IMG/VR virus record: IMGVR_UViG_2784746744_000001
Location: 1 to 64,000 of that record
Source of the DNA: a virus
Reading direction: 5' to 3' (one strand)
DNA: 64,000 nt
Numbering within the stretch: the first letter of the stretch is position 1; every line of letters starts with the position of its first letter. Position numbers and translations under genes: made by a program. Below are positions 3,663-63,367 of this stretch, in pieces. The notes beneath the pieces were generated by a model. It worked only from the letters and a program-made list of their open reading frames with translations, did not search any database and was not told the DNA's origin.

Positions 3663-4388
3663 TTAGTATTTTCCTGATAGAACGATTGGATGGACGCTTA
3701 CGACGTCCTCGCGAGCGAATCGTATTTCGCCTTCTGGATTATATTGACGCAGGACCAAGTCGGAACCCGCCCAGCCCACGAACTCCTTCACATAACCGAG
3801 CGGAGGAAGATCCTCTGAGGCTGGCCTTATCTGCACGATGACGTCGTCGCCTCGACGAGATGGCTTGGTGGGATGAACGTACACGGTTTCGCCAGCCTTG
3901 TAGCGAGGCCACATCGACTCGCCGTCAATGTAGACTGCGTAGGCGTTCGGCACGTTTTGCAGTGAGGGTGGGCAGGCGACATAATCGAGAACGTGGCCAT
4001 TGAAGCTATACTCGCCGCCTTCTCCGCCGACGGCCTCGCCCAATACGGGAAGCATCATTTCCAAGCGATTCGTGGGAATGTGCCCCATAATTCGAGCGTC
4101 AGGAGCGCCCGCGCCTGTGGACGTACCGTTGGTTGGAACCCTGCTAGGCACTGCGAAGAATTTTCCGGCAGCGCTCTCCCCACTCGCTTCCTTCATCAGC
4201 TGTCGCATCTCGTCTTCAGCAATGCCTAGGAGGGCAGCCAGTTCACGCCATTTGCGCGGCGACGATGTGTTTCCGCGGAAGATCTCGGAGATGGCTTGAG
4301 GAGTCATTTCCAGCCTGTCTGCGATCTCCACCTGGCTAATATTTAATTCTTTAGCTCGGGCGACGAGCAGGTCAGACAGCTGGGACAC
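3663..4388 (-). CDS. cI/LexA-like phage repressor (HTH_XRE plus S24 peptidase domain)
   Basis: N-terminal HTH (LNISQVEIADRLEMTPQAISEIFRG). C-terminal LexA-like domain with G-E-S-M Ser and K-A-G-E Lys dyad context. Confidence 0.85.
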   Translation of the reverse strand: MSQLSDLLVARAKELNISQVEIADRLEMTPQAISEIFRGNTSSPRKWRELAALLGIAEDEMRQLMKEASGESAAGKFFAVPSRVPTNGTSTGAGAPDARIMGHIPTNRLEMMLPVLGEAVGGEGGEYSFNGHVLDYVACPPSLQNVPNAYAVYIDGESMWPRYKAGETVYVHPTKPSRRGDDVIVQIRPASEDLPPLGYVKEFVGWAGSDLVLRQYNPEGEIRFAREDVVSVHPIVLSGKY

Positions 4389-11963: not shown

Positions 11964-12065
11964 CCACCGAATAGCGGGTCGCGACCAACGGCCCGCTACC
12001 GACACAGATGACCCGCCGCGCGGCTCACCACCGTGCGGCAATCACCACATCCAGAGGAGACCACC

Positions 12066-13124
12066 ATGCAGCTGAAAACCAGCCGCACCGAGCTCGCGCG
12101 CGTCGTTGGCGCCGTTGGCAAGGTCATCGAATCCAGAACAACCATCCCAATCTTGTCCAATATCCTGCTAGAAGCCGAGGGCGACCGCCTTCGCCTTACC
12201 GGCACGGATCTCGACATCCAAGCGACGGCCAGCGCTGAGGCTACCATCGCCGAACCTGGCCGTGTCACGGTCAGCGCCAAGTTGCTCGGCGATATCGTCC
12301 GTAAGGCCGGCGCTGATGACATTTCGCTCGATCTGAAGGATGGTCGTCTGACCGTCAAGTCGGGACGATCGCGCTTTACGCTCGAAACTTTGCCGGCATC
12401 GGACTATCCGGATCTCGCGGTCGGCACGTACTCTGCCGAATTCGAGATCGACCTCGCTGCGCTGTTCGCACCTGTGTCGTTCGCGATCTCGACAGAGGAG
12501 ACCCGCTATTACCTGAACGGTGCGTTCTTCCACAGTGAGGAGGGCGCGCGCTCAGTAGCCGTGGCAACTGACGGGCATCGCCTCGCGCGCAACCGCGGCC
12601 CCGAACTGCCCGCTTTCGCCGGGATCATTGTTCCTCGAAAAACAGTCGGCTTGCTGCCGAAGGGTTCGGCTAAGGTATCGGTCTCAGACACGAAGATCCG
12701 CATCGAATCGGCAGGATTCTTGATGGTCTCGAAACTGATCGACGGCACGTTCCCCGACTATCGCCGCGTCATCCCTCAGAACAACGACAAGACCATCGTG
12801 GTGGATCGTGATGAAATGATGCGGGCATCTGACCGCGTCGTCACTGTCAGCAGCGAGCGTGGCCGAGCTGTAAAGCTTAGCGTTGCGCCAGGTTCGATCG
12901 CTCTTGCCGCACGCTCTGACGCAGGCGCCGCAGAGGACGAGGTAGCAGCTGAATATAGCGGCGAGCCTTTCGTCATCGGCTTCAACAGCCAGTACGTTCG
13001 TGACCTGTTCAATGTGCTGCCCGCCGGACCAGTCACAATCAACGCTGCCGACGGCGGCTCACCTGCGATCATCACCGGTGGGCTTGATGGCTGGGACGGC
13101 GTCTTGATGCCCATGCGCGTCTGA
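12066..13124 (+). CDS. dnaN: DNA polymerase III beta sliding clamp (DnaN-like), phage-encoded
   Basis: 352 aa. Three-domain clamp signature (MQLKTSRTEL...ILSNILLEAEG...LRLTGTDLD). Leader CAGAGGAGACCACC. Confidence 0.85.
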   Translation: MQLKTSRTELARVVGAVGKVIESRTTIPILSNILLEAEGDRLRLTGTDLDIQATASAEATIAEPGRVTVSAKLLGDIVRKAGADDISLDLKDGRLTVKSGRSRFTLETLPASDYPDLAVGTYSAEFEIDLAALFAPVSFAISTEETRYYLNGAFFHSEEGARSVAVATDGHRLARNRGPELPAFAGIIVPRKTVGLLPKGSAKVSVSDTKIRIESAGFLMVSKLIDGTFPDYRRVIPQNNDKTIVVDRDEMMRASDRVVTVSSERGRAVKLSVAPGSIALAARSDAGAAEDEVAAEYSGEPFVIGFNSQYVRDLFNVLPAGPVTINAADGGSPAIITGGLDGWDGVLMPMRV

Positions 13125-31550: not shown

Positions 31551-31627
31551 CGCAGAGTAGAGCAGCCAGGTAGCTTGTCAGGTTCATACCCTGAAGGTCG
31601 CGGGTTCAAATCCCGCCTCTGCAACCA
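31551..31627 (+). tRNA. tRNA-Met (CAT), initiator-like (C1-A72 mismatch)
   Basis: Cloverleaf folded by hand. Anticodon loop TTCATAC. T-arm GCGGGTTCAAATCCCGC. 3-prime CCA. High similarity to bacterial tRNA-fMet. Confidence 0.75.
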
Positions 31628-31635
31628 ACTCCCAT

Positions 31636-31711
31636 GCGCGTCTGGCCGAGTGGTTCAGGCAACGGTCTCCAAAACCGTCTAGGTCGGTTCGATTCCGGCG
31701 GCGCTGCGCCA
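31636..31711 (+). tRNA. tRNA-like sequence, possibly tRNA-Trp (CCA anticodon), with imperfect acceptor stem (possible pseudo-tRNA or att remnant)
   Basis: D-arm GCCGAGTGGTTCAGGC. Anticodon arm ACGGT-CTCCAAA-ACCGT. T-arm GTCGGTTCGATTCCGGC. Acceptor pairing only 5 of 7 and no clean CCA register. Confidence 0.35.
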
Positions 31712-32611: not shown

Positions 32612-33163
32612 ATGAAAGTGTTGCCGGCGATGTCCAAAGGTAAGGAAGTCAGCCAGGCCGAACTTTCCGACATCATCGGCAAATCGCAGGTCACGCTTCG
32701 TGCGTGGGAGCGAGAAGGCATGCCGGTACTGTCGAAGGCAGGCAAAGGCAGAGCATCGACCTACAACACGGTCGAGGTGATCGAATGGATGGAAGCCCGG
32801 CTGATATCCAAGTTTGCGGCCAGCAAGGAAGACGACACCGATGTCGTTTCCGAGGATGAGGGGCGCCGCCGCAAGATCGTAGCTGAGGCCAAGCTGGCCG
32901 AATTGAAACTTGCTGTCGAGAGCGGGGAGCTTGTCGAGATCGAGGCCGTAGGGGTCGAGGTCGATACTGTGTTGAGCAGCGTGCGAGCGCGGCTCTTGGC
33001 AATACCCGGAACGCTGGCACTGACGCTGACAAACGAACCGGACCCGTCCGTCGTTCGTGATCGCGTCTTTGACGAGATTTCGGGGGCACTGAATGAGCTA
33101 TCAGCCGCTGATCTCGGCAGGCCGAGCGAAGCTACAGGCGCGCCTGAGGCAATCGAGGCTTAA
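32612..33163 (+). CDS. terminase small subunit (HTH DNA-binding)
   Basis: N-terminal HTH (VSQAELSDIIGKSQVTLRAWEREGMP). Position immediately before TerL. C-terminal coiled coil. Confidence 0.6.
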   Translation: MKVLPAMSKGKEVSQAELSDIIGKSQVTLRAWEREGMPVLSKAGKGRASTYNTVEVIEWMEARLISKFAASKEDDTDVVSEDEGRRRKIVAEAKLAELKLAVESGELVEIEAVGVEVDTVLSSVRARLLAIPGTLALTLTNEPDPSVVRDRVFDEISGALNELSAADLGRPSEATGAPEAIEA

Positions 33164-35228: not shown

Positions 35229-35420
35229 ATGGCTGACAATTCTGCACAGATTGCCGCCCTTAGAGAGGCTATCTCGCAGGGTGCTCGCCGCGTTGTATTT
35301 CGTGACGGCGGCACCCACCGCGAGGTGGAGTATCCATCGATGAAGGAATTGCGGGACACGCTCGAGTGGCTTGAGGCCCAGCAGTCTCGGAAGTCGCGCA
35401 TCACGCTGGCGGCATTCTGA
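35229..35420 (+). CDS. head-tail joining protein, lambda gpW-like
   Basis: 63 aa. Position between TerL and the portal. AGGAGG RBS. Confidence 0.55.
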   Translation: MADNSAQIAALREAISQGARRVVFRDGGTHREVEYPSMKELRDTLEWLEAQQSRKSRITLAAF

Positions 35421-37600: not shown

Positions 37601-39157
37601 ATGACACTTCGTGAGAAGCTGGCCCTGCTGGAAAAGCGCGCCGCTGACAAGCTTGCCGAAATCAAGGACGACACCGCAGCCGACGCTGCCCGCACGATCG
37701 AAAAGGATCATGAAGGCATCCTGGCAGAGATTGCGGAAGTGCGGAAGCAGATTGCAGCCGCTGATGCCGCTGAAGATGCTACCCGCGCTGCACCTCGTCA
37801 GGACCAGACCCAGCCGGTCGACGTCGATGCCGCCATCCGCAAGGCCCTCGACACCGAACACAAGCGAGCGTCCGAAATCCGCACGCTCGCGAAAGAAGCT
37901 GGTGAGGCCGAGCTTGGCGACGAGCATATCGACAAGCGCTCGAGCGTCGAGAATTTCCGATCTGCACTTCTGGAAAAGATGATGAAGCGCGAAGCACCAG
38001 CCACCGACAATCGCAGCCCGGCCAGCGTCGGCGAAGAGCACCACGAGAAGCGCGCCTCTGCTATGCGCGAAGCGCTCGCACACCGCGCCGACCCATCCAA
38101 GCCTCTGGGCGACGGCGGCCGCGAATATCGTGGTTTCTCGCTGATGGATATGGCTCGTGAGTCACTCGAAACCCGAGGCGTCAAGACGCGCGGCATGTCT
38201 CGCGATGAAATCGCTGGTGCAGCTCTTGCTCAGCGTTCGGGCTACGGTTCGACGTCCGACTTCCCGATTATCCTCGGCAATGTGGTCAATACGACCCTGC
38301 GCGCTGGTTATGAGGCTGCCGGTCAGACTTTCCGTCCGCTGATCCGCGAGACGACCGTCGCCGACTTCAAGGCCATCAACCGCGCCCAGCTTGGTGAAGG
38401 CCCGGCCTTCGACAAGGTCAGCGAGTCTGGCGAATTCAAGCGCGGCACGGTCGCTGAAGGCAAAGAATCCTACAAGATTGCGACCTTCGGTAAGGTGATC
38501 GCCATCACCCGTCAGGTCATCATCAACGATGACATGAACGCATTCAGCCGCATCCCGCAGCTGATGGGCGGCGCCGCTGCTCAGCTGGAAAGCGATCTCG
38601 TCTGGGCTCAGATCCTGAGCAACCCGACAATGGGTGACGGCCAAACGCTCTTCTCCGCACCACACAAGAACGTGCTGACCGCCGCCGCTTTCGGCGTTGC
38701 CTCGCTGGGCAAGGGTCGCGCGCAGATGGCGAAGCAGGTCGGCCTCGACGGCAAGACGGTTCTCAACATCCGTCCGCAGTTCCTCGTGGTTCCGGTCGAA
38801 CTCGAAACGACTGCCGAGCAGGTGCTGAAGTCCACGTTCTTCGCGGATGACGCCTCCAAGGTTGCCACGGAATCGATGCGCAAGCTGCAGATCATTGCTG
38901 AGGCACGCCTCGACAACGGTATCAGCAACCCCGCTGCTGTTTCCACAGCAATCGCCGGTTCGACGACTGCCTGGTATCTCGCTGCTTCGCCCGCACAGGT
39001 GGACACGGTTGAGCTCGCTTACCTCGAAGGCAATCGCGGCGTCTATATCGAAACCCGTCAGGGCTTCGACGTCGATGGTCTCGAAGTCAAGGCTCGCCTC
39101 GATGTTGGCGCCAAGGCCATGGACCACCGCGGCCTCGCCAAGAACGCCGGCGCCTAA
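37601..39157 (+). CDS. major capsid protein with N-terminal coiled-coil scaffold-like domain (HK97 fold family)
   Basis: 518 aa. N-terminal K/E/A-rich coiled coil, then capsid-like domain. Confidence 0.75.
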   Translation: MTLREKLALLEKRAADKLAEIKDDTAADAARTIEKDHEGILAEIAEVRKQIAAADAAEDATRAAPRQDQTQPVDVDAAIRKALDTEHKRASEIRTLAKEAGEAELGDEHIDKRSSVENFRSALLEKMMKREAPATDNRSPASVGEEHHEKRASAMREALAHRADPSKPLGDGGREYRGFSLMDMARESLETRGVKTRGMSRDEIAGAALAQRSGYGSTSDFPIILGNVVNTTLRAGYEAAGQTFRPLIRETTVADFKAINRAQLGEGPAFDKVSESGEFKRGTVAEGKESYKIATFGKVIAITRQVIINDDMNAFSRIPQLMGGAAAQLESDLVWAQILSNPTMGDGQTLFSAPHKNVLTAAAFGVASLGKGRAQMAKQVGLDGKTVLNIRPQFLVVPVELETTAEQVLKSTFFADDASKVATESMRKLQIIAEARLDNGISNPAAVSTAIAGSTTAWYLAASPAQVDTVELAYLEGNRGVYIETRQGFDVDGLEVKARLDVGAKAMDHRGLAKNAGA

Positions 39158-51466: not shown

Positions 51467-53635
51467 ATGGCCGTCCTTCAAAGTCAGCTGCGCCTGTCGC
51501 TGCTGGATCAGGTCTCTGCGCCTATCCGCAAGGTGTCGGGCGCGCTGAGTGGCCTGCAGCGTCAGACGATGGCGTTTACCAATCCGCTCCGTGGTGCCAT
51601 TGGGCAACTCGCTGCATTCGGCGGAGCCTACGTCGGAATCACCGAAGGCCTGAAGGCCACCATCGGCTCGGCAATCACCTTCGAATCCGCATTCGCAGAC
51701 GTCCGAAAGGTTGTCGAGGCATCCGACGAACAGTTCGGCAACATGCGCCGGACCATTCGGCAGATGTCGACCGAAATCCCGATGACCGCCAACGATATCG
51801 CCGCGCTGTTCGCAGCCGCCGGCGAATCTGGCATCGCAACCACCGAGCTAAAAGAATTTTCCGAGATGGCGGCCCGCGTGGGGATTGCCTTCGATATCGG
51901 AGCCGGGCAAGCGGGCGAGACCCTCGCTAAGCTCAAAACCCAGTTGGGCGTGTCGGTGGCTGACGTCGGGTCTCTTGCCGATGCGATCAACCACCTGTCA
52001 AATAACATGGCTTCCAAGGCCAGCGACATCACCGACTTCATGCTGCGCGTCTCGGCGCTCGGCAAAATGGGTGGTTTCACTGCGGAACAGATCGCCGGCA
52101 TTGGCTCAGCTATGATCGCGGCTGGCGCGCCCTCCGAGGTCGCCGGCACCGCGATGCAAAACGTCGTGAAGGCACTGACCCGTGGAAATTTCGCGAAAAA
52201 GGACCAGAGAGACGCCGCCAAGGCGCTCGGCCTCGACCTGCCGCAGATTGCCAAGCAGATGCAGAAGGACGCGCCGAAAGCGCTGAAAACGGTCCTGAAG
52301 GCAATCGCCAAGGCACCGAAAGATCAGCACATTGCGATCCTGTCGCAGTTCTTCGGTGATGAAGCCAAAGCCTTTGCGCCCTTGATCGGAAACGTCGGTC
52401 TGCTGGATCAGGCGCTCGATAGCGTCGCTGACAAGGCGAAATACACCGGCTCGGCGTTCAATGAATTCGTTCAGCGTTCGAGCACAGCTGCGAATGCTGC
52501 CCAGTTGCTTGGAAACAAAATTTCCAATCGGTTCTGGGAAATGGGCGACCGAATGCTGCCTACCATCAAGGAAGGCATCGCCGGCATCAGCGAGGTGATT
52601 GACACGCTCGATTCCCGCGTTTCCATCTTCGACAAGATGGAAACCAGCATCATGGGGTTCGCGCAAGGCCTCGGCTACAACGGAGTAAAGGACGTCATCG
52701 CCGACCTCGGCGACCTGTTGTTCGGCAAAGTTGACGGCACTGCCGGTGATCAACTTGGCCGCCTGTTCATGCAGGCGAAGGAGTGGGGCGCCACGATCCG
52801 CGAGCTTAGTGCAGCGATCAAGGAAAACCCGATCGCTCAGTTCTTCGCTGATCTTGCGCCGTATGGTTTTCAGATCATGGTGTGGGGAGCAGGCATCGCC
52901 TCCCTAGCCGGCACAGTCCGCAAACTTGCAGCTGCAATGATGTTCCTCAGCGGGGCATCAGCGATCATCGGCGCGCTGAAAGCCGCCGGTACGATAGCTG
53001 ATGTTGTTTCTGGCGGAACTATGCCGGGCGGTAAGGGCGGGGGGAAGGCCGGTTCCGCAGGCACTTCTGTGCCCAAGCCAGACACTGGCGTCATGGCTAC
53101 GCTGGCTGCATGGGGTTCATGGGTTAAGGGTGCTGTCGTGGCTGGCGCTCCCGGTCTTATGTCGGAAGCAATGTCCTTCACGCCGGGCGATACTTTCGAA
53201 GATCAGGTGCGACTGCAAAAGCAGCACCGCGAAGACCTTGAGCGGATCACCGGCATCAACAGGGCCGCCCTGACTCAAGGCTGGCAGCGGAACTTCGGTC
53301 AGACCACGCTTCCCGGCGTCGGCGCTCAGCAGGCAATGGACAACGCGCGCGCCTTCGGTCCCGGCGGTCGCACCACAGACCAGCTGCCCGGCAAGACGGC
53401 CGACGATCTCGGCATCGTCAGGACCACGCGCATCGACTCCTCGTCGATCGCGGCAATGATCCAGCCATCTGGCACGCAGGACGTTCGCGTCACCAATCCT
53501 CAGCCGCCGAACGTCACCGTCCACGCGCCAATCAGCATCACAGGCGTCGCGGATCCGCAAGCAGCGGCAAGCTCTGCCGCATCTCAGCTGGGCGAGTCCG
53601 TAAGGGCTGCCGTTGAAAGCGCTGACACCGACTAA
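51467..53635 (+). CDS. tail tape measure protein
   Basis: 722 aa. Ala/Gly-rich, helical repeats. Confidence 0.8.
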   Translation: MAVLQSQLRLSLLDQVSAPIRKVSGALSGLQRQTMAFTNPLRGAIGQLAAFGGAYVGITEGLKATIGSAITFESAFADVRKVVEASDEQFGNMRRTIRQMSTEIPMTANDIAALFAAAGESGIATTELKEFSEMAARVGIAFDIGAGQAGETLAKLKTQLGVSVADVGSLADAINHLSNNMASKASDITDFMLRVSALGKMGGFTAEQIAGIGSAMIAAGAPSEVAGTAMQNVVKALTRGNFAKKDQRDAAKALGLDLPQIAKQMQKDAPKALKTVLKAIAKAPKDQHIAILSQFFGDEAKAFAPLIGNVGLLDQALDSVADKAKYTGSAFNEFVQRSSTAANAAQLLGNKISNRFWEMGDRMLPTIKEGIAGISEVIDTLDSRVSIFDKMETSIMGFAQGLGYNGVKDVIADLGDLLFGKVDGTAGDQLGRLFMQAKEWGATIRELSAAIKENPIAQFFADLAPYGFQIMVWGAGIASLAGTVRKLAAAMMFLSGASAIIGALKAAGTIADVVSGGTMPGGKGGGKAGSAGTSVPKPDTGVMATLAAWGSWVKGAVVAGAPGLMSEAMSFTPGDTFEDQVRLQKQHREDLERITGINRAALTQGWQRNFGQTTLPGVGAQQAMDNARAFGPGGRTTDQLPGKTADDLGIVRTTRIDSSSIAAMIQPSGTQDVRVTNPQPPNVTVHAPISITGVADPQAAASSAASQLGESVRAAVESADTD

Positions 53636-60050: not shown

Positions 60051-60389
60051 ATGATCAAGATTCTCACAGTCGCCGCTCTCTCTCTCGGCCTTGCAACGTC
60101 CGCAATGGCTCAGGCATCTGGCGGCTCTTCCGGCACAGGTGGCGACAATGGTGCAGGTTCCGGTAGCTCTAGCGGCGCGAGCGGTTCAAACTCCGGCTCG
60201 ACTGGCACTGGTGGCGGTAACAACGGCGGGGCGTCGACCGGCGCATCAGGCGGCAAGGCTAGCGACGCGCCGGGTAGCTCGCAGTCGAACTGCGGCGCTC
60301 CCGGCGGGACTCAGGGCGCAGCCCAGTCCGGCACGACTTCTTCCGGCTCCACAAATCCAGGAGCAGGCGCTGCCGGCACATCGTGCTGA
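60051..60389 (+). CDS. secreted Gly/Ser-rich low-complexity protein
   Basis: Signal peptide MIKILTVAALSLGLATSAMA. RBS AAGAGGAAC. Terminator at 60404-60445. Confidence 0.55.
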   Translation: MIKILTVAALSLGLATSAMAQASGGSSGTGGDNGAGSGSSSGASGSNSGSTGTGGGNNGGASTGASGGKASDAPGSSQSNCGAPGGTQGAAQSGTTSSGSTNPGAGAAGTSC

Positions 60390-60403
60390 CACCCCGTAAG
60401 TAA

Positions 60404-60445
60404 GGAAGCGCCTCCTGCCCGCCGGCAGGGGGCGTTTTTTCGTTT
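60404..60445 (+). terminator. rho-independent terminator (bidirectional)
   Basis: GCGCCTCCTGCCCGCCGGCAGGGGGCGTTTTTTCGTTTTT. Confidence 0.6.
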
Positions 60446-60817
60446 TTACTGCGGAAAATCTTTCGACGCCTTCGCTGTTGCTAACGTCTTGCCGACTGCA
60501 TCAAGAGCTTTGACCGTAAAGCGGTAAGTGTGACGCATTGGCGGGCAGGGGCCGCTATAACGAAACGCGCCGTACGGAAGCGATTGCTGGCCTTTGTAAT
60601 CAACCTTGCCACCGCCGTGGTTGTAACTCATCGCGTCCATATCAACCATTTTGATGTCGAGCTTCACTGTCCCAGCCGGAACGCCTGACAGAGAGATTGG
60701 AGGGGATTTGGAGTCGAAGCATTTTTTTGTCGGACCCCATTCAACGGAGGCCTTCATATCGGCAAGGGCCACGGTGGTGAGTGACAATGAAAACAATACG
60801 GTAAGGGCGATTCTCAT
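60446..60817 (-). CDS. YbhB/YbcL-family PEBP (phosphatidylethanolamine-binding / Raf kinase inhibitor-like) protein, secreted
   Basis: Signal peptide, then PEBP motifs (YRFTVKALD, HGGG). Confidence 0.7.
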   Translation of the reverse strand: MRIALTVLFSLSLTTVALADMKASVEWGPTKKCFDSKSPPISLSGVPAGTVKLDIKMVDMDAMSYNHGGGKVDYKGQQSLPYGAFRYSGPCPPMRHTYRFTVKALDAVGKTLATAKASKDFPQ

Positions 60818-60906: not shown

Positions 60907-61173
60907 TCAAGGTAGGCCGATGCTATCCGCAAGCTCTGCTGCCTCGTTCCGCACGGTACCGCGTTTGTAAGGATAGTGCTCATAGCACCACCATTTTGGT
61001 TCATCGTGCCCATGGCGAAAGCCCCAGCCTCCCCACTTGCCGCAGCCTTCCACGATGCAGAAGTGAATATACGGTCCGGCCCCGTCCAATTGGGCTGTAC
61101 GGCTTTCGTCGCTCATTTTTTTGCCTCGATGAGTATGTTGGCTTTCAGTAGACAAGGGAAGCGAGCTTCGCAT
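60907..61173 (-). CDS. hypothetical Cys/Trp-rich small protein
   Basis: 88-aa ORF downstream of the imuA-like gene. Confidence 0.3.
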   Translation of the reverse strand: MRSSLPLSTESQHTHRGKKMSDESRTAQLDGAGPYIHFCIVEGCGKWGGWGFRHGHDEPKWWCYEHYPYKRGTVRNEAAELADSIGLP

Positions 61174-61415
61174 TGATCGGTTCCGCGACGGTCGCAGCCG
61201 ATAGCCATTATTCGGCGAAGCTCGACGAACTCCGTCTCGGCACCAAGCTTCTTAACCAGCTGTTTTCGATCATAGACGCCGTGGCGGTCGCACCGGTGGC
61301 AAACCATTTCGATCTTGTCGCCGCGGAAGTCGCGCAGTTTGGGAAGGCTCACAGCGCCACCCTCCATGGGTCTTCTTGTTCTTCGATAGATGTCATGTGG
61401 CCTGTTGCGTTGCAC
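61113..61415 (-). CDS. hypothetical Cys-rich small protein (CHRCDRHG motif)
   Basis: 100-aa ORF. Overlaps both neighbours. Confidence 0.3.
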   Translation of the reverse strand: MQRNRPHDIYRRTRRPMEGGAVSLPKLRDFRGDKIEMVCHRCDRHGVYDRKQLVKKLGAETEFVELRRIMAIGCDRRGTDQCEARFPCLLKANILIEAKK

Positions 61416-62080
61416 GCGTTTACCTCAACGTCAAAACTCTCAGCTGCGCGAACACGCATGAGCTCTAGAAACCAGCGGGGCCGACCAATGCCGGGAACGG
61501 GTAGGGGTTCAGAAGGAAGGGGTGACACCCGCCATCTCGTCATCGAGGCGGTCGGGCTTCCGAAGTCTGTGGCTTCTTGCTGGCGCCGCCACCGACGAAT
61601 GATAAGCCCGGTTGCTCCAGACTGCTCTGCGGCGAGTTGGAAGCGTCGGCTGGCGACCATCGGCAGGCGCACCAGTTCAGCGACAACAACTGCTACGCCG
61701 CGATACCGCAGGCCTTCCTCGGCGCATTCAATCACGCCTTCTTCATCTTTGGATTCGACGAAAATCACGCGGTCCATGCTGAGGCCGACCTGCACCAAGG
61801 ATGGCGCGAAAAGATCGGTGCGAGTTAGACACCATATCACCGGGCCGGGTATCCGCGCTGCTATCCCTGCCGTAAACAGCGCCGACACTGCCCCGCACAC
61901 TACATCGGTTCCGCCGCCCGCAATCTCGTGCGTCGCTCCGAGCGCCAATCCGCCGCCAGGCAACCGGCTATCAATTTCGGGCACTCCGAAAGGGACCGTT
62001 TGGCGCTGACGCACAGCTCCGCCGGCGATCTGGTCGATGCGCTCCTGTAGATCTGCGATGACGGTGCGATTAATTCTCAT
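61349..62080 (-). CDS. imuA: ImuA-like SOS mutagenesis protein (RecA/SulA-fold)
   Basis: N-terminal ...IDSRLPGGGLALGATHEIAGGG... matches the ImuA consensus. SOS box directly upstream. Confidence 0.7.
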   Translation of the reverse strand: MRINRTVIADLQERIDQIAGGAVRQRQTVPFGVPEIDSRLPGGGLALGATHEIAGGGTDVVCGAVSALFTAGIAARIPGPVIWCLTRTDLFAPSLVQVGLSMDRVIFVESKDEEGVIECAEEGLRYRGVAVVVAELVRLPMVASRRFQLAAEQSGATGLIIRRWRRQQEATDFGSPTASMTRWRVSPLPSEPLPVPGIGRPRWFLELMRVRAAESFDVEVNACNATGHMTSIEEQEDPWRVAL

Positions 62081-62099
62081 GATCTCACAATAGGCTTTT

Positions 62100-62114
62100 G
62101 TTCCTATTATGTTC
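62100..62114. promoter_or_regulatory. alphaproteobacterial LexA (SOS) box GTTC-N7-GTTC
   Basis: GTTCCTATTATGTTC about 20 nt upstream of the imuA-like start codon. Confidence 0.65.
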
Positions 62115-62237
62115 TCATTGATAGTGGAGTCAACGGCCTGTTCGCGGTGACCGCGTAGCCAACTGAAACTGCTAATTTATATGTTCAGAATGGGCTGTGG
62201 TTACGCAGTGGATAAACCATTTTTGCCAAGGCTGGCT

Positions 62238-62609
62238 TTAAACGCACAAAGCCCCGCGCATGTCGGTACGCGGGGCAATGGCGCGGCCAGCTGACGCATC
62301 GTCAAGATCAACCGGCGCGATTTCAAAACCGTGATCACCGAAATACGTTCCGAGATTATTTAACTTTTGCTTCAGGCGATTCACCGTCTCTAAGATTTGC
62401 CTGAGTTCCTCGTCTGTGCCCATGCCGAGTGCCAAATTTTCTGCGACCTCGACAACAGCTGCCAGGGTTTCGGCCTCTGTCCAGCCGGCTTTCATCGCGT
62501 CGGCAATAAGCTCCTGCAACTGCCCTTCGATCGCCTCCTCACATTCGATGAAGCGGTCGGAAGAATTCGCGCGGGGTTTATCCATGCCGCCCAACGAACT
62601 CAACCGCAA
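62238..62609 (-). CDS. hypothetical acidic protein
   Basis: 123-aa ORF. Divergent from the protease gene across the operator. Confidence 0.4.
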   Translation of the reverse strand: MRLSSLGGMDKPRANSSDRFIECEEAIEGQLQELIADAMKAGWTEAETLAAVVEVAENLALGMGTDEELRQILETVNRLKQKLNNLGTYFGDHGFEIAPVDLDDASAGRAIAPRTDMRGALCV

Positions 62610-62650: not shown

Positions 62651-62710
62651 TCTATTGTAGTGGTAGTTCATGGCCTCACCAGCCAAATTCACCACACAGA
62701 GGAGGCCGTC

Positions 62711-63367
62711 ATGACCAGATTCAGACGCATTGCGTTCGCATCCGTCGCTGTATTACTCAGCGGTATCGCCTACTTTGCCGCCCCTACAGTAGCGGCCTAC
62801 ACCGAAAAGTTCACTGCCGCGCCGGTTACAGCCGCCGCGACGGTCAAAGTCGTCACAAAGACCGGCCACGGTTCGGGTGTGCACATCGGCACAGGATTTG
62901 TTCTGACTGCTGCGCACGTCGCCCGCGACGTGAAGTCGGTGCAATTGGTGACGAAGGACGGTCAGTCACGCCAAGCCGACGTCCTGTGGATCAACGATGA
63001 ATACGACATTGCGCTGCTGCGCACGTCGCCCGCGACGTTGCCTGCCGCTCACCTGGACTGCGGTCGTATGGATGTCGGGGCGGTCATCGAGGCCATGGGC
63101 AATCCTCTGGTCGTCGATTTTGTCTCGGCCTACGGCAAGATTGCCGGCGACCCTCGGAAGCAGGGTCCTTGGAAGTCGGTCTACGTCACAGACATCACGA
63201 CCGTGAAGGGTATGAGCGGTGGCCCGGTATTCTCGTCATCTGGCGATGTCGTCGGCATCACCGTCGGTCTGCTGTCTGACGCTACAGGGCTGATCCCGAT
63301 CGGCGTGCGATTTGGCTTCGTCGTGCCGTCGTCCGATGTTTGCGCGCTGTTGGGGCGGGTGTCTTGA
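62711..63367 (+). CDS. trypsin-like S1 serine protease, secreted
   Basis: His motif LTAAHV. Ser motif GMSGGPV. Signal peptide. Leader CACACAGAGGAGG. Confidence 0.7.
   Translation: MTRFRRIAFASVAVLLSGIAYFAAPTVAAYTEKFTAAPVTAAATVKVVTKTGHGSGVHIGTGFVLTAAHVARDVKSVQLVTKDGQSRQADVLWINDEYDIALLRTSPATLPAAHLDCGRMDVGAVIEAMGNPLVVDFVSAYGKIAGDPRKQGPWKSVYVTDITTVKGMSGGPVFSSSGDVVGITVGLLSDATGLIPIGVRFGFVVPSSDVCALLGRVS

What the first reader, a model, noticed from the sequence alone, without database searches (positions are those of the whole stretch)
60907..62114. SOS-box-controlled imuA-like gene without imuB/dnaE2, followed by two small Cys-rich ORFs
A perfect GTTC-N7-GTTC LexA box (62100-62114) sits immediately upstream of an ImuA-like gene. 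The canonical partners, imuB (a Y-family polymerase) and dnaE2, are absent. Instead two overlapping small Cys/Trp-rich ORFs follow (61113-61415 and 60907-61173). This may be a degenerate cassette. It may also be a prophage-associated SOS-inducible module of unknown function that ties cargo expression to the same DNA-damage signal that induces the prophage.
Basis: partly seen in the sequence, partly recalled or inferred. Interest (0 to 1): 0.55.

Follow-up and report, generated by a model that had tools for sequence, protein, structure and literature searches.

The report
SOS-controlled orphan imuA prophage cassette
A prophage of a Neorhizobium strain carries a small operon, apparently switched on by DNA damage, that encodes an intact ImuA protein without its usual polymerase partners plus two conserved zinc-finger-like mini-proteins; the same cassette recurs on plasmids, islands and other phages of the Rhizobiaceae and its function is untested.

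Summary
GTTCCTATTATGTTC (62100-62114) lies 20 nt upstream of an intact 243-aa imuA gene (61349-62080, minus strand) and overlaps the -10 hexamer of a TTGACT-16-CATAAT promoter. Two translationally coupled small genes follow: orf79 (61113-61352) and orf69 (60907-61116). The 64-kb window holds no imuB, dnaE2, umuC or dinB.

The box is not significant in the window alone. It does head the homologous operon in 35 of 40 independent loci, with the same promoter layout.

This is not a degenerate imuA-imuB-dnaE2 cassette. The constant core is LexA box + orf79 (+ orf69). The gene between box and orf79 varies: imuA, umuD-umuC(-imuA), other small genes, or imuA pseudogenes. Elsewhere orf79 sits in an operon with dinB, behind umuDC, or divergent from imuA-imuB-dnaE2.

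All three genes are under purifying selection. ImuA has a RecA-core fold. The orf79 model matches no solved structure.

Most likely this is a mobile, LexA-repressed accessory module that acts in trans on host RecA or translesion machinery. That role is inferred. I rate it a new variant of a known kind, of moderate interest.

The parts
62238..62585 (-). orf123-like gene. It is a conserved neighbour just upstream of, and outside, the LexA-controlled unit. The likely start is the ATG at 62585. Only the N-terminal ~70 aa are conserved.
   Evidence: It matches phrog_37258 and phrog_37486. Homologues lie next to the cassette in L007, L014-16, L018, L020, L042, L052 and L060. In L060 the frame stops at codon 82.
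62106..62133 (-). Sigma-70-type promoter: -35 TTGACT (62133-62128), 16-nt spacer, -10 CATAAT (62111-62106).
   Evidence: Consensus scan, 10 of 12 matches. The same TTGACT at the same distance from the box is seen in 27 homologous loci.
62100..62114 (.). LexA (SOS) box GTTCCTATTATGTTC, which reads GAACATAATAGGAAC on the coding strand. It overlaps the -10 hexamer.
   Evidence: Exact match. A box heads 35 of 40 independent orf79 loci, including canonical imuA-imuB-dnaE2 and umuDC promoters. GTTC-N7-GTTC is the alphaproteobacterial LexA motif (PMC3323433).
61349..62080 (-). imuA paralogue, 243 aa: RecA-core fold, no adjacent imuB or dnaE2.
61113..61352 (-). orf79: a basic 79-aa protein with conserved C18, C21, C53 and C61 (putative Zn site). 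It is the constant element of the cassette.
   Evidence: GTGA overlap with the imuA stop. The family has 182 clusters at E<1e-3 and no Pfam match. dN/dS is 0.04-0.3. It is linked to dinB, umuDC and imuABC. No fold match.
60907..61116 (-). orf69: 69-aa protein with conserved H-x-C-x4-C...W-x-C-x2-H, an EsV-1-7-like Cys motif.
   Evidence: ATGA overlap with the orf79 stop. It matches phrog_29777 at E 1.9e-15. Homologues hit PF19114 at 26.8 bits. It lies directly after orf79 in most loci. See the alignment.
60446..60817 (-). Secreted PEBP/YbhB-like protein: lineage-specific cargo that may be read through from the operon.
   Evidence: PF01161 at E 7.6e-9. It is present only in the window, L009, L060 and (inverted) L064. 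It lies 89 nt after orf69 with no predicted terminator between them.
60403..60440 (.). G+C-rich hairpin between the convergent PEBP gene and the Gly/Ser-rich protein gene. It is the likely end of the transcription unit.
   Evidence: Terminator scan: 17-pair stem with a T run on the plus strand.

Best explanation
This is a LexA-repressed accessory operon carried by mobile elements of the Rhizobiaceae, here in the moron region of a temperate prophage of Neorhizobium sp. JUb45.

In undamaged cells, host LexA sits on the GAAC-N7-GAAC box that overlaps the -10 hexamer and blocks transcription. After DNA damage, RecA-stimulated LexA cleavage opens the promoter. One transcript then yields ImuA, orf79 and orf69 through coupled translation, possibly reading on into the PEBP gene.

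The products act in trans on the host's damage-tolerance machinery. ImuA is a RecA-core protein. It would dock onto the RecA-N-terminus-like motif of a host Y-family protein (ImuB or UmuC), or onto RecA itself. The basic Zn-binding orf79, with orf69, would be a small accessory or regulatory subunit of translesion synthesis.

Shown here: gene structures, promoter and box architecture and its conservation, purifying selection, the RecA fold, and genomic linkage of orf79 to three translesion polymerase systems.

Inferred: LexA binding, all protein partners, and the effect on lesion bypass or mutagenesis.
For: 1. The box overlaps the -10 of a near-consensus promoter. The same architecture is found in 35 of 40 independent loci, including the promoters of bona fide imuA-imuB-dnaE2 and umuDC operons.

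2. ImuA is intact. It keeps all 48 invariant family positions and has a RecA-core fold. It is 58-62% identical to imuB-linked ImuA and 68-70% identical to ImuA proteins embedded in umuD-umuC-imuA-orf79 operons.

3. Orphan imuA genes have dN/dS of 0.09-0.17.

4. orf79 homologues are co-transcribed with dinB (R. etli p42f). They follow umuD-umuC or umuD-umuC-imuA. They are also divergent from imuA-imuB-dnaE2, sharing its box.

5. SRAP is often the next gene.

6. Start and stop codons overlap by 4 nt, in the window and in its relatives.

7. Literature: the ImuB and UmuC C-terminal regions carry a RecA-N-terminus-like motif proposed to bind RecA or ImuA (PMC6511836). The imuABC cassette is consistently LexA-regulated (PMC3323433).
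Against: No translesion polymerase lies in the window or in the 7 kb beyond it. The rest of the host genome could not be searched, so a partner in trans is assumed.

imuA is dispensable in this cassette. It is a pseudogene or absent in L013, L017, L018, L020 and L024 while orf79 and orf69 stay intact. The core function therefore cannot depend on ImuA.

orf79 has no recognisable clamp-binding or other informative motif, and no structural homologue.

Outside the Rhizobiaceae, orf79 relatives sit in plasmid accessory regions or phage contigs without polymerase genes.

No expression or binding data exist.
Confidence: 0.45

Rival explanations
1. RecA-filament or SOS modulator serving the mobile element, working like DinI or PsiB. 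The orphan ImuA, with or without the small proteins, binds host RecA and damps or times RecA* activity. This would tune CI-repressor cleavage and prophage induction, or plasmid establishment, rather than assist a polymerase.
For: M. xanthus ImuA binds RecA1 and inhibits its DNA binding and strand exchange independently of ImuB (bioRxiv 10.1101/2020.12.14.422803; discussed in PMC11002988).

The prophage has a CI-like HTH+S24 repressor whose cleavage would depend on RecA*.

Plasmid copies lie near psiB and other leading-region genes.

The cassette lacks any polymerase.
Against: imuA is often lost from the cassette.

orf79 is specifically linked to dinB, umuDC and imuABC operons on large replicons, where no element-level benefit is obvious.

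There is no sequence or fold similarity of orf79 or orf69 to DinI or PsiB.
Confidence: 0.2
2. In this window imuA is an evolutionary passenger on its way to loss: a relic of an umuD-umuC-imuA-orf79 type operon. Only orf79-orf69 carry the selected function, which need not concern translesion synthesis.
For: imuA pseudogenes or deletions lie next to intact orf79-orf69 in L013, L017 and L024. imuA is replaced by unrelated small genes in L018, L020, L004, L011 and L027, among others.

The same strain has a second cassette without imuA (L018).
Against: The window's imuA is full length with all invariant residues.

Against its closest relative it shows 15 nucleotide but only 5 amino-acid changes, giving dN/dS of 0.17.

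Shinella-type orphan imuA genes have dN/dS of 0.09-0.14.
Confidence: 0.15
3. SOS-induced growth or division inhibitor, or a toxin or exclusion module. ImuA would act like its relative SulA, or the small Cys-rich proteins would be toxic. The effect would be to arrest or kill damaged or superinfected cells.

For: The location is a prophage moron region, with SIR2_2 and other defence-like genes nearby.
Against: ImuA is far closer to canonical ImuA (58-62% identity) than to SulA.

There is no PADLOC match for any of the three proteins.

There are no membrane segments or known toxin domains.

Operon linkage to polymerase genes is not expected for a toxin.
Confidence: 0.08

Closest known systems
imuA-imuB-dnaE2 (imuABC) SOS mutagenesis cassette
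   Same: The first gene is homologous: 58-62% identity to Rhizobiaceae ImuA, with a RecA-core fold. The LexA box and promoter type are the same. Like imuABC, it is often carried by plasmids or mobile elements.
   Different: There is no ImuB (the inactive Y-family scaffold) and no DnaE2 polymerase. Two unrelated small Zn-binding proteins follow imuA instead. Orphan and umuDC-linked ImuA proteins form a clade separate from the imuB-linked ones.
umuDC (Pol V) operons of Rhizobiaceae plasmids that carry imuA and orf79 (pAtCFBP5499c, A. larrymoorei plasmid, R. panacihumi contig)
   Same: They hold the closest intact ImuA relatives (68-70% identity) and orf79 homologues in the same order (imuA then orf79, with overlapping codons), behind a LexA box.
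   Different: They contain umuD and a Y-family polymerase upstream and lack orf69. The window has neither umuD nor umuC.
ZnR1-ZnR2-SRAP(-DinB) neighbourhoods next to Ku in Bradyrhizobiaceae (Aravind, Anand and Iyer 2013, PMC3765255)
   Same: Two small uncharacterised Zn-chelating proteins are encoded in tandem in SOS, SRAP and DinB contexts of Alphaproteobacteria. Shinella-type cassettes and phage phi2LM21 likewise end in SRAP.
   Different: Whether ZnR1 and ZnR2 are the orf69 and orf79 families could not be tested, because the alignments are cut off in the held supplement. No imuA, LexA-box analysis or phage context was described there.
DinI / ImpC (impCAB) and PsiB: small SOS- or plasmid-encoded RecA modulators
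   Same: These are small proteins (about 80 aa for DinI) expressed with or next to umuDC-type operons, or from mobile elements, during SOS. This comparison rests on my own knowledge. It is an analogy of context and size only.
   Different: There is no sequence or fold similarity. orf79 and orf69 are Cys-rich putative Zn binders, and DinI and PsiB are not.

Membership tests
ImuA family (RecA-like translesion accessory protein) | Sequence similarity to ImuA proteins encoded in imuA-imuB-dnaE2 operons | tested here: met
   It is 58-62% identical over the full length to the ImuA of pTiAg57, R. etli p42f, L035 and L046. NCBI names the identical protein 'ImuA family protein'.
ImuA family (RecA-like translesion accessory protein) | Score above the NCBIfam NF033429 equivalog cut-off (150 bits) | tested here: inconclusive
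   The score is 50.3 bits. ImuA proteins from genuine Rhizobiaceae imuABC operons also reach only 65-68 bits, so the model does not discriminate in this lineage.
ImuA family (RecA-like translesion accessory protein) | RecA-core fold without the RecA N-terminal oligomerisation helix and C-terminal domain | tested here: met
imuA-imuB-dnaE2 mutagenesis cassette | imuB (inactive Y-family) and dnaE2 adjacent to imuA, or a split cassette elsewhere in the genome | tested here: not met
   There is no ImuB or DnaE2 similarity in the 64-kb window, nor in the 7 kb beyond it (L009). The rest of the genome is not available, so a split cassette cannot be excluded.
Alphaproteobacterial LexA (SOS) regulon | [quoted passage not shown] | tested here: met
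   An exact box overlaps the -10 hexamer. A box is conserved at 35 of 40 homologous operon heads. The motif is defined in PMC3323433.
Alphaproteobacterial LexA (SOS) regulon | LexA binding and DNA-damage induction | not testable with these tools
   This needs EMSA or ChIP and RT-qPCR or RNA-seq after mitomycin C or UV.
SulA (SOS cell-division inhibitor) | Score above the SulA model cut-offs | tested here: not met
   The scores are 16-21 bits against cut-offs of 150-162.
EsV_1_7_cys motif (PF19114), for orf69 | Pfam gathering score of 25 bits; C-x4-C...C-x2-H pattern | tested here: inconclusive
   The window protein has no hit at E<=0.1. Homologues from L011 and L033 score 26.8 and 19.9 bits. 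The H-x-C-x4-C...C-x2-H pattern is conserved in 25 sequences.
ZnR1/ZnR2 of SRAP-Ku-DinB neighbourhoods (Aravind 2013) | Sequence membership in the published ZnR1/ZnR2 alignments | not testable with these tools
   The alignments are truncated in the held supplement. Only the gene-order strings could be read.
Known anti-phage defence systems (PADLOC) | Match to a PADLOC model | tested here: not met
   There is no hit for imuA, orf79 or orf69.

The most novel reading that the evidence does not exclude
orf79, usually with orf69, is a previously unrecognised SOS-regulon component of Rhizobiales: a small Zn-binding factor that works with several damage-tolerance systems (DinB, UmuDC, ImuABC, SRAP). 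The orphan ImuA clade would then be a polymerase-independent RecA-binding partner of it. Phages and plasmids would carry the pair to reprogramme host RecA and translesion activity, and so their own induction or establishment, during DNA damage.
Probability: 0.2. Interest if true: 0.75.

Novelty: new variant of a known kind. Interest (0 to 1): 0.5.

Why it matters
What ImuA does in the ImuA-ImuB-DnaE2 mutasome is still open. An ImuA clade that is kept under selection without ImuB or DnaE2, and that sometimes sits behind UmuC instead, gives a natural system for asking what ImuA does on its own: binding RecA, or binding the C-terminal tail of any Y-family protein.

The small orf79 protein is linked to three different translesion polymerase systems and to SRAP, under one LexA-controlled promoter type. 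It is a concrete candidate for a new accessory or regulatory factor of damage tolerance in rhizobia and agrobacteria. In these bacteria plasmid-borne mutagenesis cassettes have been shown to speed adaptation (PMC4151985).

Carriage by temperate phages would couple host mutagenesis or RecA control to prophage induction.

Tried and rejected
Profile searches of the two small proteins:
- Pfam, NCBIfam and PADLOC give nothing for orf79 or for the window's orf69.
- PHROGs gives only an unknown-function family for orf69.
- A Pfam scan of 50 orf79-family members gave one chance hit.
- A PDB sequence search with the orf79 profile found nothing.

Fold searches with the orf79 AF2 model (pLDDT 77.6):
- Foldseek against BFVD gave a best E of 0.1.
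- The AFDB library was unavailable.

Other dead ends:
The scan with A2 reached only the Rhizobiaceae.
- Distant orf79-family members lie on short or uninformative contigs.
- A cluster look-up gave almost no names.
- I could not check the rest of the Neorhizobium sp. JUb45 genome for imuB or dnaE2. The only copy reachable by exact-protein look-up is an 11.6-kb Logan contig.
- I could not compare orf79 and orf69 with the published ZnR1/ZnR2, because the supplement is truncated.

Rejected readings:
- The box at 12996 is not a second SOS site. It lies inside the DnaN-like coding sequence.
- The two small ORFs are not overlapping out-of-frame artefacts. dN/dS of 0.04-0.3 and conserved coupled starts show real genes.
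- The 'Bacteriophage sp.' GenBank hits are not evidence for phage carriage. MT835635 is a conjugative-plasmid fragment.
Full report
**1. What is in the sequence**

The genes of interest lie on the minus strand of window 60.4-62.6 kb. In order of transcription they are as follows.

- An orf123-like gene at 62238-62585.
- A 157-nt spacer that holds a near-consensus promoter. The -35 is TTGACT (62133-62128), the spacer is 16 nt, and the -10 is CATAAT (62111-62106).
- The direct repeat GTTCCTATTATGTTC at 62100-62114. On the coding strand it reads GAACATAATAGGAAC and contains the -10 hexamer.
- imuA at 61349-62080 (243 aa), starting 20 nt after the box.
- orf79 at 61113-61352. Its GTG start overlaps the imuA stop as GTGA.
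- orf69 at 60907-61116. Its ATG overlaps the orf79 stop as ATGA.
- After 89 nt, a secreted PEBP/YbhB-like gene at 60446-60817.
- A G+C-rich hairpin at 60403-60440.

Homologues and an independent gene call use the shorter starts given above.

**2. Is the box more than chance?**

Within the window it is not. GTTC-N7-GTTC occurs twice against 2.4 expected. The other copy lies inside a DnaN-like coding sequence.

Comparative evidence is decisive. I collected 40 independent loci that encode an orf79 homologue. They came from plasmids, GTDB genomes, metagenome contigs and viral contigs. In 35 of them a perfect box heads the operon. Typically a TTGACT lies 13-14 nt upstream of the box, so the box covers the -10 region.

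The remaining roughly 25 boxes are scattered over 618 kb of sequence.

The same box type lies in front of genuine imuA-imuB-dnaE2 operons (L003, L006, L046) and umuDC operons (L001, L002, L005, L021). GTTC-N7-GTTC is the accepted alphaproteobacterial LexA motif, and imuABC is LexA-regulated wherever it has been examined (PMC3323433). LexA control is therefore strongly supported by sequence, though no binding was measured.

**3. The imuA gene**

The protein scores only 50 bits on NCBIfam NF033429, whose cut-off is 150. ImuA proteins from real Rhizobiaceae imuABC operons score just 65-68 bits on that model, so it is uninformative in this lineage.

- The window protein is collinear with canonical ImuA and 58-62% identical to it. 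It is 68-70% identical to ImuA proteins encoded after umuD-umuC on Agrobacterium and Rhizobium replicons.
- It keeps all 48 invariant positions of a 32-sequence family alignment.
- An identical protein is annotated 'ImuA family protein [Neorhizobium sp. JUb45]', which identifies the source organism.
- In a neighbour-joining tree the orphan and umuDC-linked ImuA proteins group apart from the imuB-linked ones.

**4. No polymerase partner**

tblastn with ImuB, DnaE2, UmuC, UmuD, DinB and SRAP finds nothing in the 64-kb window. A Logan contig (L009) is identical to the window end and extends 7 kb further. It carries only phage-like and defence-like genes there, including SIR2_2 and dGTP_diPhyd_N. 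The rest of the genome could not be reached.

**5. Genomic setting**

The window is a temperate phage genome. It has these parts:

- an integrase at 1-1113;
- a CI-like HTH+S24 repressor at 3663-4388;
- a DnaN-like clamp, a helicase, a primase/polymerase and a methyltransferase;
- terminase at 33093, portal at 35371, capsid/protease at 37601 and tape measure at 51467.

The cassette lies after the tail genes, among cargo genes. Phage-type genes follow it, including a phrog_9683 protease and similarity to phage 16-3.

Related prophages carry variant cassettes next to homologous tail genes (L020, L024, L060-L065). The closest relative is an IMG/VR contig about 93-94% identical in DNA. It has the whole unit from orf123 to PEBP.

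**6. The conserved unit is not imuA**

Mapping all loci shows a constant core of box + orf79, usually followed directly by orf69. The genes between box and orf79 vary:

- a full imuA (window, L022, L060);
- a 69-aa gene plus imuA, with SRAP downstream (Shinella type: L014, L032, L038, L043; L029 has imuA and SRAP but neither the 69-aa gene nor a perfect box was found there);
- umuD-umuC-imuA (L001, L002, L021);
- umuD-umuC only (L005);
- a 57-aa gene, with or without a 147-aa gene (L004, L011, L027, L028, L030, L031, L044);
- a 103-aa or other gene (L018, L020, L033 and others);
- imuA remnants, namely an internal deletion in L013, multiple frameshifts in L017, and three frames in L024.

More distant orf79 homologues (46-57% identity) occupy two other positions. 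One is the first gene of an orf79-dinB operon. The other is divergent from imuA-imuB-dnaE2 across a shared box. Examples are R. etli p42f, pTiAg57 and L046.

The sequenced temperate Sinorhizobium phage phi2LM21 has an analogous unit. Its order is an orf123-like gene, then TTGACT...GAACATTATAAGAAC, then small genes that include an orf69 homologue and a distant orf79-family member, then SRAP.

Strain JUb45 itself has a second cassette without imuA (L018).

**7. Are the genes functional?**

Nei-Gojobori dN/dS values are low throughout.

| Gene | Comparison | dN/dS |
|---|---|---|
| imuA, orphan | Shinella pairs | 0.09-0.14 |
| imuA, umuDC-linked | plasmid/contig pairs | 0.06-0.08 |
| imuA | window vs L060 | 0.17 |
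| orf79 | various pairs | 0.04-0.30 |
| orf69 | various pairs | 0.05-0.26 |

All three are therefore real, selected genes in the lineages where they are intact. Repeated decay of imuA next to intact orf79-orf69 shows that imuA is facultative.

**8. The small proteins**

*orf79.*
- It is basic (pI 9.3). The family conserves C18, C21, C53 and C61.
- An exhaustive profile search finds 182 clusters at E<1e-3, all of them small proteins.
- No Pfam family matches.
- The AF2 model has pLDDT 77.6. It shows a beta-hairpin carrying CxxC, followed by helices. It matches nothing in PDB or BFVD.

*orf69.*
- It conserves H-x-C-x4-C...W-x-C-x2-H.
- It belongs to phrog_29777.
- Its homologues touch the EsV-1-7 Cys-motif Pfam family.

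Outside the Rhizobiaceae, orf79 relatives lie in accessory regions of conjugative plasmids, and on one phage-like metagenomic contig.

**9. Mechanism**

The best-supported reading is a LexA-repressed accessory operon that mobile elements carry and that acts in trans on host damage-tolerance machinery.

The link to translesion synthesis rests on two things. The first is homology of ImuA. The second is the repeated operonic linkage of orf79 to dinB, umuDC, imuABC and SRAP.

Published work gives a plausible docking mode. The ImuB and UmuC C-terminal regions carry a RecA-N-terminus-like motif proposed to bind RecA or ImuA (PMC6511836).

A serious rival is that the orphan ImuA modulates RecA itself. 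M. xanthus ImuA binds RecA1 and inhibits it (bioRxiv 10.1101/2020.12.14.422803; PMC11002988). For a prophage with an S24-type repressor, that would feed back on induction.

A third possibility is that imuA is a passenger here and only orf79-orf69 matter. A SulA-like or toxin role is least supported.

**10. Comparison with what is known, and novelty**

The protein is a member of the ImuA family, but the locus is not an imuA-imuB-dnaE2 cassette.

The closest described things are three:
- that cassette;
- umuDC operons, some of which in Rhizobiaceae contain imuA and orf79 (this appears in annotation only and is not discussed in the papers I could search);
- the 'ZnR1-ZnR2-SRAP-DinB' neighbourhoods that Aravind et al. 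noted in Bradyrhizobiaceae (PMC3765255). These may be the same two small-protein families, but I could not test that.

I found no paper describing orphan imuA cassettes, their LexA-box architecture or their carriage by phages.

I rate the finding a new variant of a known kind and of moderate interest. The regulatory and comparative picture is solid. The function remains inferred.

Noticed in passing
window 60907-62080 vs L060 4288-5919: There is a gene-sized mosaic inside the cassette. Against the closest relative, imuA (15/729 nt, dS 0.05) and orf69 (2/207 nt, dS 0.02) are nearly identical. orf79 between them (24/237 nt, dS 0.42) and PEBP (47/369 nt, dS 0.60) are much more diverged. This suggests allele exchange by recombination.
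   Followed up: partly
window 12033-13124 (+): The phage encodes its own DnaN-like sliding clamp. The only other GTTC-N7-GTTC of the window (12996) lies inside this coding sequence and looks like chance. A phage clamp next to an ImuA gene might matter for translesion synthesis, but this was not examined.
   Followed up: no
L018 (Neorhizobium sp. JUb45 contig NZ_SLYW01000005) 7406-8443: The same strain carries a second cassette. Its order is orf123-like, box GAACATAATGAGAAC, a 103-aa gene in place of imuA, orf79 (82% identity) and orf69 (79% identity).
   Followed up: partly
window 60051-60389 (+) and 60446-60817 (-): Two convergent secreted cargo proteins share one hairpin terminator at 60403-60440. 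One is a Gly/Ser-rich protein with a signal peptide and the other is a PEBP/YbhB-like protein.
   Followed up: no
L009 876-2744 (beyond window end, about 69-71 kb): A SIR2_2-domain protein (432 aa) and a dGTP_diPhyd_N protein lie further along the prophage arm. They may be defence or nucleotide-pool genes.
   Followed up: no
window 31551-31707 (+): tRNA-Met (CAT) and tRNA-Trp (CCA) genes lie just upstream of the packaging module.
   Followed up: no
L007 (GenBank MT835635, 'Bacteriophage sp.', human faecal sample): The record carries VirB11, VirD4-type coupling protein and relaxase genes around an orf123-like / box / imuA / Zn-ribbon cassette. It looks like a conjugative-plasmid fragment of a Rhizobiaceae-like organism, not a phage.
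   Followed up: partly
L022 7982-7996: A second perfect GAAC-N7-GAAC lies inside the 3' end of imuA, 31 nt upstream of orf79, in Neorhizobium alkalisoli. It may be an internal LexA site or chance.
   Followed up: no
L013 5356-6452 and 9776-10339: One metagenomic contig holds two LexA-box cassettes on opposite strands. One has an internally deleted imuA followed by orf79 and orf69. The other has a p69-like gene plus a distant orf79-family (zn95-type) gene.
   Followed up: no
window 62660-63367 (+): A trypsin-like serine protease with a signal or anchor sequence (phrog_9683, PF13365) lies immediately beyond the cassette. Homologues occur in Rhizobium phage RHph_X2_25.
   Followed up: no
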